DNA of 64,000 bases from Chrysomallon squamiferum (taxonomy: Eukaryota; Animalia; Mollusca). Where the stretch lies: contig CM022671.1 in NCBI GenBank assembly GCA_012295275.1, positions 10,664,001 through 10,728,000 on the forward strand. The letters are read 5' to 3'. Each line of letters begins with the position of its first letter. Position 1 is the stretch's first letter. The notes under the pieces are model-generated. The model was not told where the DNA came from. It saw nothing but the letters and a program-made list of their open reading frames with translations, and searched no databases. The position numbers were made by a program, and so were the translations under genes. This document shows positions 1 through 57,689 of the stretch, in pieces.

Positions 1-69
1 AATCAACAACACTAGATGGGTGGTGTCCATATTTTCAGCAGGTTTAAGGCATTCCAATACCATTGCCCA

Positions 70-920
70 AACTGTGCCCTGTAGTTGATAATCCATCCTA
101 GGCAGAAACAGTCCTGGTAATGCAGTCTCATTCCTGATATTCTGACGCATGACTATCCTGTTTGCTGACATCCATTTTAGATAGGGATTGTCTCCACCCT
201 CCTGTCTGTTCATTGATGAGTGTCATATTTACTGATAATTCCAGTTATTTGAAAATGTCTACTAAAATTTCAGTAAGTTAACAAATTGTACAATTAAAAT
301 TATAGCTTTATATTTCTTGGTAGTTAATTTCGCTTAAACATCCATGCAAGAGGTATTTAAGAAGCACTAGATAAAGAAAAACAAAAGGAATAATAATAAA
401 ATTTAAAACAAAAACTGTTTAATGCACTCTAATGTAATGTAAACTTAAAATATTTAATTCTTTGATGATCTGGTCAGGAATAGTGACTGACCAGTAGATA
501 ACTGGAATGGTGTCATTTTTCCTGTAGGGCAGACAGATCATCAGAGATTTAATAATAATAACTTTGAAAAATCTTTTGTCTATTTCTCTTGCCTAACAGC
601 ACAAGTCTTTCTACTCTGTGATGGTCTGTGCAGTAGCAGTGAATGACCAGTGAATAATCTGGAATACATTCATTACTCCTGTGGGGCAGACAGATCATTG
701 GAGAGCTTTCACTTCTCATTTTATTCCAATTTATCAATTTAGATTCAGAATGATAGGTGTCTTCAAAACATTAAATTTATCACATAAACATTTTACTTAT
801 CAAACACTTGCTATGCTGCACTAATTGATAAACAGATAGAAGGGTTACATCCATAATCTGATATGCCTAGTGTGTAAATATGACACTTCCACCAATGGGG
901 AGCATAACAGTGATATGTTT
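70..920 (+). repeat. Diverged direct duplicate of 3730-4620
   Basis: Shared blocks ccattttaga..., ccaccctcctgtctg, cctgt(a/g)gggcagacagatca (twice in each copy) and gtaaatatgacactt. Confidence 0.85.
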
Positions 921-52800: not shown

Positions 52801-55800
52801 AAATAAATTAAAAAATGCAAAACTGAAATACTAAATTCAAAGATTCAAAACCATGCCACCATCATCCTATTCACTGGAGGAAAAGTGTCATATTTACAGA
52901 TTAGGGATGTTAAATTCTGGCTCTCACTGTTCTATGTGCTTAACAATTAGTGCATCATAGTAAGCACTTAATAAGTAAAATGCTAATACTATAAACATAC
53001 TTATGTTCTAATAGATACTTATCAGACTGAATCTTAATGAGGAGACTGGTACTGTACCACAGTTAAAAGTGAAAGCTCTACAATGATCTGTCTGCCCCAC
53101 AGGAGTAATGAATTTGTTCCAGATTATTCTCTGGTCATTCACTGCTACTGCACAGAGCATCATAGAGAAGACAGAATTGTGCTGTAATTCTCTGGTGATC
53201 TGTCTGCCCTACAGGAACAATAACGTCATTCCAGTTATGTATCGGTCAGTCACTATTCCTGCCCAGATCATCAAAGAATTAAAATATTTAAGTTTACATT
53301 ACATAACAGTGCAATAAACAGTTTTTTTAATTTTATTATTGTTTCTTTTTTCTTATTATTTTTTATCTAGTGCTTCTTAGATACCTCTTGTATGAATGCA
53401 CAAATGAAATTAACTAGCAAGAAATATGAATCTATGATTTTGATAGTAGAATTTGATATCAAAATTGAAATTTTAGTAGACATTTTCAAATAAGAACCAG
53501 AATTATCAGTAAGTATGACACACATCAATCAGCAGACAGGAGGGTGGAAACAATCACAATCTAAAATGGATGTTTCAAAAGGTCAGCAAAACACGATAGT
53601 CAAGCATCAGAATTATCAGGGATTAGACTACATTCACAGGACTGTTTTATCTAGGGTGGTTACACCATTTATGGGGCACAGCTTTAATGAAATGTGCTTA
53701 TTTCAAGCAACCAACTCAGCTTTCGTTCAACTGTTTTCTTATATAATAGTTTTATCTGTTGAATTTTATAGATCTGATTAGAAACTTCTGAATTTATAAA
53801 TATAGTATAACAAAATGCAACATTGCTTAAAAATATCAAAAAGTGTGCATGAGTCTGATCTCATCAATGATTGTTAAAAGAAACCGAGACTATTCTTGGT
53901 TTGTGTTGAATGGCCAAACGTAGAATACATTAAAATAAATCTAACAGTACTTAGTATTTCATCACTGTACATAATTTAAATAATGTCAAGTTTGTTGATC
54001 TTTTAAAAAAAAAACTAATATTATTTCCTTTCGTTTAATTTAATCTACATATTGTAATTGAGAATTTCAAAAAAGTAAAATTTATGCCAGATGTACTTAT
54101 TACTAGTAATTAACATTACTTCAGTTCAGATACTTTACTACAGTAACCAACAATTTAAACTTAATACAAAGATCTTTCTTTCCATCTTGTGAGCATTTTT
54201 TCATGTTTAATTCTTTATTATATATAAATTTTAAAGCTCCCAAATAACTATCTATCTGCTATTCAATTGCTTTTAGTATTTAGTGTTATTACTTTTTATT
54301 TTTCTTTGTTTTGTTTTTCACTGATGACTGTTTATGTGTTGGTTTACACGAATTGTTAGTGAACTCCAAACCCTTACTGAAAATATAAATCTAACTCGGA
54401 TGTATTTATTTCTACTAACTTCACTTCTATTCACTTGCTAGATTATAGAAACCAGAACTTGAATACCATAAAGTTTAAATCAGAACTTATTTTTATTCAG
54501 TAACCTAACTTCTTTTCACTTATATTACAACCATTATCAGTAATTATTATTTTATATAATAAATCTGCTGATCTGTCTCCTGCCCAGATTGTCTGAGAAT
54601 TAAAATGTTTTAACTGTTAGTTCACATTATATTAAATATACTTTTATTGTTTACTAAATGCTTATTAAATATCTGTTCCCTGAGGACTGAAATTATTTAG
54701 AAACTATTACAACCATTACCAGTAACAGTTTACCCAGAATTTAACCTCTTCACTACCAAGTGTTTATCTAATGCAAACATATGTTAGAAGTAGATGATAT
54801 CCAGTATAGGACTGATGACAATGAGGAAATTCACTGGAATTTGTACAGTGACAACTAATCTGTCAGTGTTTGTACATGGGAAGTCAAACCTGACCAGTAT
54901 AGCAGATACTGCAGCTACTCAAGAGATTAAATACTATCGTCTGCTAATACCTATCCTAAATAATTTTGAATTGCTTTAAACAAATGAATAGGATATCTAA
55001 ATCTGTATTTATTTCTAAGGCTGGAAAACATTCCTTTTCTTTGATTTTGCTTTACACAGAATCAGTAATTTCTACTCAATGATTTTTTTTTATTATTATT
55101 ATTTTTTTTACAAATAATCCATTTAAAACCTCAATCTTATATTACTTTTCTTTGTTTTCTTCTGTATTCATCATTTTAAATTTTTGGAAAATTCCCCTTA
55201 CATTTTTCTACAGTGCAAAATGCCTAGATTTGTTTCATCGATTCATTGAATTTATTGTCATTCTTATTGTCATAATGTTTACATAAACAACTCATCAACT
55301 AAAAACTTTTTAATGCATGTTCTGTATTATATTTTATAAAACTAAATTAACATTAATATTTAATACTTTATTCTTTTACTTATAGATATTATATAGATTT
55401 TCCATAAAGTAGCTACTATTAGTTCTTTTCTTTTCGTTTCTTTTCTTTTCTTTATTTCTTAGAAAAAAAGAAAGAGAAAAAAGCATTCATTCATTCATTT
55501 CAGTATACTATAAACAGAAATGGTTTCTAAATCAGTATATTTATATCAATATTTTATCATATATAAAATCATTAAAACAATATTTAAGGTATTCTCTTTT
55601 AAACACATTATTTTAGTTATAATAACTAAGGCAGCTACTTAATTAAATAATAAAAACATTAAATTGAAATCTCATACTTGTTAGTTATTAGAAATAGCCA
55701 CAGCAATGTTTTATATTTGAAATAATGTCATCTAGCTTGAAATTCATGTTTTACTATAATTACTTTAAAAAATGTTACTGCATGAAATATAGAATAATTA

Positions 55801-57689
55801 CTGATATATATCCTTAAGTATTTAAACCATGAACAATAAAAAAAATTCGAATTCTAATAATAATACTAATAATAATACTAATAATATATCTTTGAAAAGT
55901 AAACATGACATTAAAATTTACTATTTTGTAAAAAGTTTAATTTTAATTTTAAATGCAATATTTATAAGTATTCTAGCTAATATTAAGTAAATGATAATAT
56001 GATGAAAAAAGTAATTATATCACCATAGAATATAAATGTTATACCTGTCAGGGATTAGAAATAAGCACATCAGACAAAGTTGTAAATTTTAATGTTAATT
56101 TATTTTCTTGTTTGAAACAAAGAGATTTTTAAACTGACAATGATTTCCCTTTTCATTTGTAACTTTTTTTGTATTGCTGCTTTAAATAATAATGATAAGA
56201 ATGAAACTTTAAAATATATTGAAAATGTAACTAAATTACCCCATATTAAATAAAGTATATATATATAATTTTTTAAGGTTTACTTTCTGTTTTAATATGT
56301 AATGACTTAAAGGGATATGTAGACTATAATCCCCAACTGTTTTGGTATTACAGCACACTTGGCTGGTCAACCAGCATATTGACGCATGACAGTTCAAAAC
56401 TTATAATGTTTGTTTTCTTACAAATGAAAATATAATGAGCATACTGCACTTTCTCAAGATTTTATTGATAAATTTAAACAAAACGTATCACTGTTATGCT
56501 CCCCATTGGTGGAAGTGTCATATTTACACACTAGGCATATCAGATTATGGATGTAACCCTTCTATCTGTTTATCAATTAGTGCAGCATAGCAAGTGTTTG
56601 ATAAGTAAAATGTTTATGTGATAAATTTAATGTTTTGAAGACACCTATCATTCTGAATCTAAATCGATAAATTGAAATGAAATGAGAAGTGAAAGCTCTC
56701 CAATGATCTGTCTGCCCCACAGGAGTAATGAATGTATTCCAGATTATTCACTGGTCATTCACTGCTACTGCACAGACCATCACAGAGTAGAAAGACTTGT
56801 GCTGTTAGGCAAGAGAAATAGACAAAAGATTTTTCAAAGTTATTATTATTAAATCTCTGATGATCTGTCTGCCCTACAGGAAAAATGACACCATTCCAGT
56901 TATCTACTGGTCAGTCACTATTCCTGACCAGATCATCAAAGAATTAAATATTTTAAGTTTACATTACATTAGAGTGCATTAAACAGTTTTTGTTTTAAAT
57001 TTTATTATTATTCCTTTTGTTTTTCTTTATCTAGTGCTTCTTAAATACCTCTTGCATGGATGTTTAAGCGAAATTAACTACCAAGAAATATAAAGCTATA
57101 ATTTTAATTGTACAATTTGTTAACTTACTGAAATTTTAGTAGACATTTTCAAATAACTGGAATTATCAGTAAATATGACACTCATCAATGAACAGACAGG
57201 AGGGTGGAGACAATCCCTATCTAAAATGGATGTCAGCAAACAGGATAGTCATGCGTCAGAATATCAGGAATGAGACTGCATTACCAGGACTGTTTCTGCC
57301 TAGGATGGATTATCAACTACAGGGCACAGTTTGGGCAATGGTATTGGAATGCCTTAAACCTGCTGAAAATATGGACACCACCCATCTAGTGTTGTTGATT
57401 TTTTCTAAACAATTTTTAGTTTTCATTTTTTGTTTTAAGCAATGATTATAGAAATGAATTAAAAAAAAAAAAAAAAAAAAAAAAAAAAAAAAATTAAAAA
57501 AAAAAAAAAAACATGATATGAAAAACATAAATTCCCCACTATGCTTTTATGACTGTAAAGTTTCCCATGAAGTTATATCAATAAGTTTCAAAGTGTTTAT
57601 TTATTTCACATTTCGTTTATCTCTGTACCTGTATTACATCTATTCAGCTGTTTATTTCAGCTACCAATGTAAGAGTTTAAATAACAGAA

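What the first reader, a model, noticed from the sequence alone, without database searches (positions are those of the whole stretch)
1..57400. Giant (>=26 kb arm) palindrome centred inside a CDC14 gene
Seen: nearly the whole window folds back on itself around a 3.36 kb spacer. The arms differ by SNPs, microsatellite lengths and one rearranged block, so they are not a literal copy of one molecule. Established: fold-back inversions with kb-scale spacers arise from template switching or breakage-fusion-bridge cycles, and maintained palindromes (e.g. on mammalian sex chromosomes) are homogenised by gene conversion. Inference: this is either a real palindromic amplicon or two haplotypes/paralogues joined head-to-head by a chimeric read.
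Basis: partly seen in the sequence, partly recalled or inferred. Interest (0 to 1): 0.85.

Follow-up and report, generated by a model that had tools for sequence, protein, structure and literature searches.

The report
Assembly-made palindrome breaking a CDC14 gene
The 57-kb mirror repeat is in this genome assembly but not in independent sequencing runs of the same species, where the CDC14 gene continues normally and the arms look single-copy, so it is most likely an assembly error that joined two alleles head-to-head.

Summary
The palindrome is in the window as described: arms 1-26432 and 29792-57400, about 98% alike, around a 3,359-base spacer. It is very probably not in the animal.

I laid 6 public runs of this species (3 studies; short-read contigs only). 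In 5 of 6, contigs leave the window exactly at 29791 and run on into the normal CDC14 exon-10 sequence (W-A-R-I-S-R-P-G-S-V, the conserved motif). For the sixth run the row was not shown. No listed contig piece bridges the junction. Arm/spacer depth is 0.90-1.01, not about 2. Letters that differ between the arms, where seen, behave as alleles of one locus. Window-only differences cluster within 500 bases of the junction (7 of 13, P=2e-5), as expected where reads do not support a join.

Best reading: a fold-back chimeric long read led the assembler from one haplotype into the other, backwards (a false heterotype duplication). A rearrangement private to the sequenced animal is not excluded (about 5%), because its raw reads were not available. 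Earlier scan notes hold no such case for this genome. Side find: a duplicated CDC14 exon 8 whose second copy opens with a stop codon.

The parts
1..26432 (+). Left arm (runs off the window start); likely one haplotype of the region upstream of and including CDC14 exons 2-7
   Evidence: X1 contigs match it with 0-2 other letters over 0.4-1.2 kb
26433..29791 (+). Single-copy spacer: rest of intron 7, exons 8a, 8b, 9 and the first 80 bases of exon 10
29791..29792 (.). Fold-back junction; no listed contig bridges it, and 5 of 6 runs continue here into normal CDC14 sequence
29792..57400 (-). Right arm; likely the second haplotype, read backwards
   Evidence: allele pattern
29792..30030 (-). Error-rich start of the right arm: 5 indels and 1 substitution against the left arm, one a frameshift in the exon-7 copy; the 3 indels that contigs cover are absent from the runs' main contigs
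22673..26201 (+). CDC14 exons 2-7 (about 22673-22761, about 23520-23595, 24145-24237, 24470-24549, 25602-25668, 26139-26201); exon 1 not located
26818..26908 (+). CDC14 exon 8a, open; joined to exon 9 in an RNA contig (depth 96.7)
28397..28484 (+). CDC14 exon 8b, a tandem copy of exon 8 whose first codon is TGA; joined GT..AG to exon 9 in an RNA contig (depth 16.8)
29386..29616 (+). CDC14 exon 9, ending in HCK of the catalytic motif
29712..29791 (+). First part of CDC14 exon 10, cut by the junction; the assembled text then reads T-G-W-stop
30017..33558 (-). Mirror copy of CDC14 exons 7 to 2 in the right arm; no catalytic exons follow
8065..12423 (.). Diverged block, left version (one copy of a unit)
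43859..49398 (.). Diverged block, right version (two partial tandem copies 77-92% alike, plus 65- and 173-base tandem repeats)

Best explanation
The assembly folds back inside CDC14 exon 10, whereas short-read contigs of the same species run on there into a normal gene at single-copy depth, so the palindrome is most likely a misassembly in which a chimeric fold-back long read joined two alleles head-to-head. Shown: the fold-back text, the normal continuation in 5 of 6 runs, an arm/spacer depth ratio near 1, and window-only differences clustered at the junction. Inferred: one or a few reads ran along the + strand to 29791, switched to the opposite strand 3.36 kb upstream and ran back. The assembler would have followed this path and filled the return arm with reads of the other haplotype, which explains patchy differences of about 1% and different microsatellite lengths. 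Short-read polishing would then fail for about one insert length on each side of the unsupported join. Whether the chimera arose in amplification, library preparation or the pore cannot be told from here.
For: (1) A loose end at exactly 29791, with the same 30 letters, in X1, X3, X4, X6 and X2: 5 of 6 runs laid, from 3 studies. It translates as W-A-R-I-S-R-P-G-S-V; 75 of 85 homologues that carry the catalytic motif and extend this far (of 162 fetched) read W.R..RPG at this position. (2) In X1 one 949-base contig covers 29157-29791 and goes 315 bases further at depth 267.8; another (451 bases, depth 265) crosses 26432 without a difference. (3) Median depth arm/spacer is 0.93, 0.90, 0.93 and 1.01 in X1, X2, X3, X5 (19 arm bins against 9 spacer bins; 2 bins that straddle junctions dropped). 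Five single X1 arm contigs have depth 242-287 against 229-305 for seven spacer contigs; two copies predict 1.6-1.9-fold for four of the five and 1.35-fold for one. (4) Of 73 left/right substitution sites in 19800-26432, the right-arm letter is listed at 3 (40 of 43 rows shown). At 25133 X1 has only the left letter, X2 only the right, X5 both; at 23584 X3 has only the right. This is how alleles behave, not paralogues. (5) 5 indels lie in the 250 bases next to the junction against 0.6 expected (Poisson P=4e-4); 7 of 13 places where the runs' main contigs all differ from the window lie within 500 bases of it (P=2e-5; widths 250 and 750 give P=3e-3 and 1e-4). (6) Both CDC14 copies would be truncated; long homologues have a median of 210 residues after the break (64 proteins).
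Against: No run is shown to be the assembled animal, and no raw or long reads were available. Contigs show presence, not absence, and drop rare variants. The tool warns that summed contig depth is no copy number. The piece and loose-end tables are cut (268 and 2,239 pieces, 58 and 699 loose ends not shown), so 'no bridge' holds for listed rows only, and X5's end at 29791 was not shown. About 70 of the 73 right-arm letters in 19800-26432 were not listed in any of 4 runs, so the second haplotype is mostly not confirmed as such. Real inverted duplications also give poor base calls after the junction in nanopore reads (PMC7229812, passages), so the errors on the right side alone do not decide; that effect does not explain those on the left side. 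The window width for the clustering test was chosen after seeing the data. There is no exact microhomology at the junction.
Confidence: 0.86

Rival explanations
1. Also an artefact, but both arms come from the same haplotype or molecule and differ only through consensus and polishing errors.
For: About 70 of 73 right-arm letters in 19800-26432 are not listed in 4 runs; return strands of fold-backs are error-rich (PMC7229812, passages).
Against: Transitions are 70 of 129 substitutions in the inner segment; differences are patchy (1-3 per kb at 17, 19 and 24-26 kb, 15-24 per kb at 21-24 kb) and include inserts of 9-36 bases and a block with a different copy number. Right-arm forms at 23584, 24402, 25133, 25416, and nearly so at 19903 and 21762, occur in other runs.
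Confidence: 0.07
2. A real fold-back inverted duplication private to the sequenced animal (germline or somatic), made by an exchange between the two homologues and truncating one CDC14 allele.
For: The runs laid need not include that animal; an inversion around a kilobase spacer is also the shape of in-vivo fold-backs (recalled); nanopore errors after real junctions are documented (PMC7229812, passages).
Against: A fresh fold-back would have identical arms unless it joined homologues. Window-only differences also cluster on the spacer side of the join (4 places at 29305-29653), which likely means that the animal's own short reads gave no support there. No sign of the junction in the listed rows of 6 runs.
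Confidence: 0.05
3. An old palindrome fixed or common in the species and kept alike by arm-to-arm gene conversion, as on mammalian sex chromosomes.
For: Arm length of at least 26 kb, 98% identity, kilobase spacer, patchy identity.
Against: Depth ratio 0.90-1.01 in 4 of 4 runs; normal CDC14 continuation in 5 of 6 runs; unbroken X1 contigs across both switch points; no left/right site with both letters in all runs; both gene copies would be truncated.
Confidence: 0.02

Closest known systems
Heterotype false duplication in assemblies (PMC8081667, passages)
   Same: Two haplotypes of one locus kept in the primary assembly and read as an exon, gene or segmental duplication; told by coverage and haplotype-specific variants.
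   Different: Here the two copies are joined head-to-head without a gap, in the middle of an exon, around a single-copy spacer.
Inverted chimeras of multiple displacement amplification (PMC1855051, passages; PMC6218980, passages)
   Same: An inversion with an intervening skipped stretch and segments under 10 kb apart (337 of 475 chimeras in that paper); such reads leave false inverted duplications in assemblies.
   Different: No sign that this genome was amplified; no exact microhomology at the junction; the arms are not copies of one molecule.
Foldback artefact reads in long-read data (PMC12870357, passages)
   Same: A read that turns back onto the opposite strand of the same place; about 0.55-0.6% of nanopore genomic reads there; said to tangle assembly graphs.
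   Different: That paper defines foldbacks as turning within 200 bases; here the turn skips 3.36 kb.
Gene-converted palindromes of mammalian X and Y chromosomes (recalled)
   Same: Long arms and a kilobase spacer.
   Different: Recalled arm identity is above 99.9%, with intact genes and double depth; here 98%, two truncated gene copies, single depth and no junction in other runs.

Membership tests
Real genomic palindrome (amplicon) | Two long inverted arms around a spacer in the sequence | tested here: met
Real genomic palindrome (amplicon) | Junction present in independent sequence data | tested here: not met
   No listed contig bridges 29791/29792 in 6 runs; 5 of 6 show the normal continuation; tables cut
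Real genomic palindrome (amplicon) | Arms at twice the depth of the spacer | tested here: not met
   Ratios 0.90-1.01 in 4 of 4 runs; contig depth is a rough measure
Real genomic palindrome (amplicon) | Arm-specific letters both present in every individual | tested here: not met
   Right-arm letter listed at 3 of 73 sites, segregating among runs; contigs can drop variants
Real genomic palindrome (amplicon) | Junction in several long reads of the assembled animal | not testable with these tools
   Only short-read contigs were offered
Heterotype false duplication | Duplicated sequence is single-copy in read data | tested here: met
Heterotype false duplication | Copy-specific variants behave as alleles | tested here: inconclusive
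   Yes at 23584 and 25133; most right-arm letters not seen in the 4 runs
Heterotype false duplication | Half coverage on each copy in the assembled animal | not testable with these tools
   No raw reads of that animal
Amplification (MDA-type) inverted chimera | Inversion with a skipped stretch under 10 kb | tested here: met
   3,359-base spacer; PMC1855051 passages
Amplification (MDA-type) inverted chimera | 2-21 complementary bases at the junction | tested here: inconclusive
   None exact before the break; both continuations hold TGGG, offset by 2 bases, in an error-rich stretch
Amplification (MDA-type) inverted chimera | DNA was amplified before sequencing | not testable with these tools
   Assembly method not given
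CDC14 dual-specificity phosphatase | DSPn then DSPc with the HCxAGLGRTG motif | tested here: met
CDC14 dual-specificity phosphatase | W.R..RPGS motif after the catalytic loop | tested here: inconclusive
   Missing in the window; present in the loose ends of 5 runs

The most novel reading that the evidence does not exclude
A real fold-back inverted duplication with arms over 26 kb, formed between the two homologous chromosomes of the sequenced animal, that cuts an essential mitotic-exit phosphatase gene in mid-exon: a breakage-fusion-bridge-like event caught in a wild invertebrate.
Probability: 0.05. Interest if true: 0.5.

Novelty: not a real feature. Interest (0 to 1): 0.06.

Why it matters
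As biology it matters little. As quality control it matters: this assembly likely carries at least 26 kb of falsely duplicated sequence, a CDC14 model without its last roughly 200 residues, and false second copies of the neighbouring genes. Gene-family counts or 'CDC14 truncation' claims drawn from it would be wrong. If the junction were real, it would be a rare natural inter-homologue fold-back in an invertebrate.

Tried and rejected
No whole genome is held for this window, so I could not look for the rest of CDC14 elsewhere in the assembly or follow the arms past the window. tblastn with four full-length homologues finds nothing of CDC14 after the break inside the window. An exact scan of JGI metagenome contigs with the 32 bases before the junction gave 0 matches; this says nothing either way. 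Junction errors were considered as proof of a chimera and set aside as insufficient alone (PMC7229812). A search for 'cdc14' with 'mutually exclusive exon' listed 10 of 20 papers, none on this exon by title or abstract start; not read further. Four look-ups of earlier findings gave no palindrome or misassembly note for this genome; one search listed three unrelated hairpin notes from other genomes. No fold or complex prediction was run; none bears on the question.

Full report
Observation. The window is AT-rich animal-type DNA (27% G+C, no N). Self-comparison confirms the fold-back: 1-8064 pairs with 57400-49399 (98.06%) and 12424-26432 with 43858-29792 (97.64%), around a single-copy spacer at 26433-29791. 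The inner segment differs by 129 substitutions (70 transitions) and 38 indels, unevenly spread: 1-3 substitutions per kb at 17, 19 and 24-26 kb, 15-24 per kb at 21-24 kb. Between the two segments lies a block where the right side has two partial tandem copies of a unit that the left side has once, with pieces 73-94% alike. None of this is chance.

The gene. Exons at 22673-29791 encode CDC14: weak DSPn and DSPc hits on single exons, about 60% identity of exon 9 to named CDC14A/B proteins, and a full run of exons by tblastn. The junction lies 80 bases into the exon with AGLGRTG, after which the assembly reads T-G-W-stop. The right arm repeats exons 7 to 2 backwards, with a one-base frameshift in exon 7. 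Both copies would be truncated. Long homologues have a median of 210 residues after this point, and 75 of 85 that carry the motif and extend this far (of 162 fetched) read W.R..RPG there.

Independent data. Eleven public runs were listed; 9 hold part of the stretch, from 3 studies, all as short-read contigs. I laid 6 of them. In X1, X3, X4 and the RNA run X6, and in X2, a contig stops matching at exactly 29791 and continues with the same letters, which translate as W-A-R-I-S-R-P-G-S-V, the conserved continuation. In X1 that contig is 949 bases long, unbroken across the point, at depth 267.8. On the other side, contigs that match the start of the right arm go on into the normal intron at 26440 (X1, X4, X6 as joints, X3 as a loose end), and an X1 contig crosses 26432 without a difference. 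No listed piece bridges the junction, but the tables are cut (268 and 2,239 pieces not shown).

Copy number. Median depth of 19 arm bins over 9 spacer bins is 0.93, 0.90, 0.93 and 1.01 in X1, X2, X3 and X5; two bins that straddle junctions were dropped. The tool warns that summed contig depth is no copy number, so I also compared single contigs. X1 arm contigs have 242-287 and spacer contigs 229-305, whereas two copies predict 1.6-1.9-fold for four of the five arm contigs and 1.35-fold for one. One X1 contig matches 1,200 bases of the left arm without a difference across 24 sites where the arms differ.

Alleles or paralogues. Of 73 left/right substitution sites in 19800-26432 the right-arm letter is listed at 3 (40 of 43 rows shown). 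At 25133 X1 has only the left letter, X2 only the right and X5 both; at 23584 only X3 has the right letter; at 24402 all four have it. This is allelic behaviour. Against my reading, most right-arm letters were not seen, so the second haplotype is largely unconfirmed; contigs drop variants.

Evidence from the assembly itself. The first 240 bases of the right arm carry 5 indels against 0.6 expected (P=4e-4); the three that contigs cover are absent from the runs' main contigs. Of 13 places in 19800-30080 where the runs' main contigs all differ from the window, 7 lie within 500 bases of the junction, 4 on the spacer side and 3 on the arm side (P=2e-5; width chosen after the fact, three widths given). 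Some of the 13 may be private alleles. I infer that short-read polishing failed for about one insert length on both sides of a join that the animal's own read pairs did not support. This assumes the assembly was polished, which is not shown. Real inverted duplications also degrade nanopore calls after the junction (PMC7229812, passages), which could explain the right side but not the left.

Mechanism. Most likely one or a few chimeric long reads ran to 29791, switched strand 3.36 kb upstream and ran back; the assembler followed them and built the return arm from the other haplotype. The switch and the haplotype fill are inferred. The shape, an inversion with a skipped stretch under 10 kb, is the commonest amplification chimera (PMC1855051, passages), and such reads leave false inverted duplications in assemblies (PMC6218980, passages). 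Foldback reads also arise without amplification (PMC12870357, passages). Keeping both haplotypes in a primary assembly is a common error (PMC8081667, passages). There is no exact microhomology at the junction, and the origin of the chimera cannot be fixed. I read passages of these five papers, not whole texts or supplements; nothing in supplements bears on the verdict.

Rivals. An artefact with both arms from one haplotype (0.07); a real event private to the assembled animal (0.05); a species-wide maintained palindrome (0.02). Artefact of either kind: about 0.93.

Context. Earlier unreviewed notes call this genome a snail and place another window 22.6 Mb further along the same piece. I did not test either; the second would make this a chromosome-scale scaffold.

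Verdict. The sequence feature is there, the biological feature very probably is not. Novelty: not a real feature. Interest 0.06.

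Noticed in passing
window 26818-26908 and 28397-28484: CDC14 has two tandem copies of exon 8 in the same phase. The second is closer to homologues at its start but opens with an in-frame TGA and has changes in conserved positions. X1 and X2 contigs carry the TGA unchanged, and an RNA contig of X6 joins this exon GT..AG to exon 9 (depth 16.8 against 96.7 for the first copy). Likely a decayed mutually exclusive exon or a poison exon.
   Followed up: partly
window 23400-29200: A second sequence class up to 8-9% different from the window occurs at roughly 18-55% of depth in X2-X6 and is nearly absent in X1. 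It may be a deeply diverged haplotype in pooled samples, or a copy-variable paralogue.
   Followed up: no
window 8065-12423 and 43859-49398: The two arms differ in copy number of an unnamed, exon-like unit (one copy against two partial copies 77-92% alike); likely a structural polymorphism between haplotypes. No Pfam hit.
   Followed up: partly
window 15376-15900 (mirror 40388-40913): C-type lectin-like exons (Pfam Lectin_C, E=0.01, below cut-off), with a short duplicated piece at 14747-14875.
   Followed up: no
window 26882: The window's exon 8a reads GPR where all five DNA runs have a G-to-A change giving GPH, the residue in 43 of 52 homologues; probably a consensus error or a private allele.
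   Followed up: partly
window 21480-22150: Depth rises 2- to 10-fold in all four runs: a dispersed repeat upstream of the first located CDC14 exon.
   Followed up: no
window 57884-60446: Nested tandem duplications 70-96% alike, including a 247-base unit and a 570-base offset pair.
   Followed up: no
window 69-888 and 3726-4580 (mirrors 56513-57332, 52883-53684): A dispersed repeat of about 850 bases, 72-76% alike, with an internal short duplication.
   Followed up: no
window 48455-48650 and 48759-49095: Right arm only: three identical copies of a 65-base unit and two copies of a 173-base unit.
   Followed up: no
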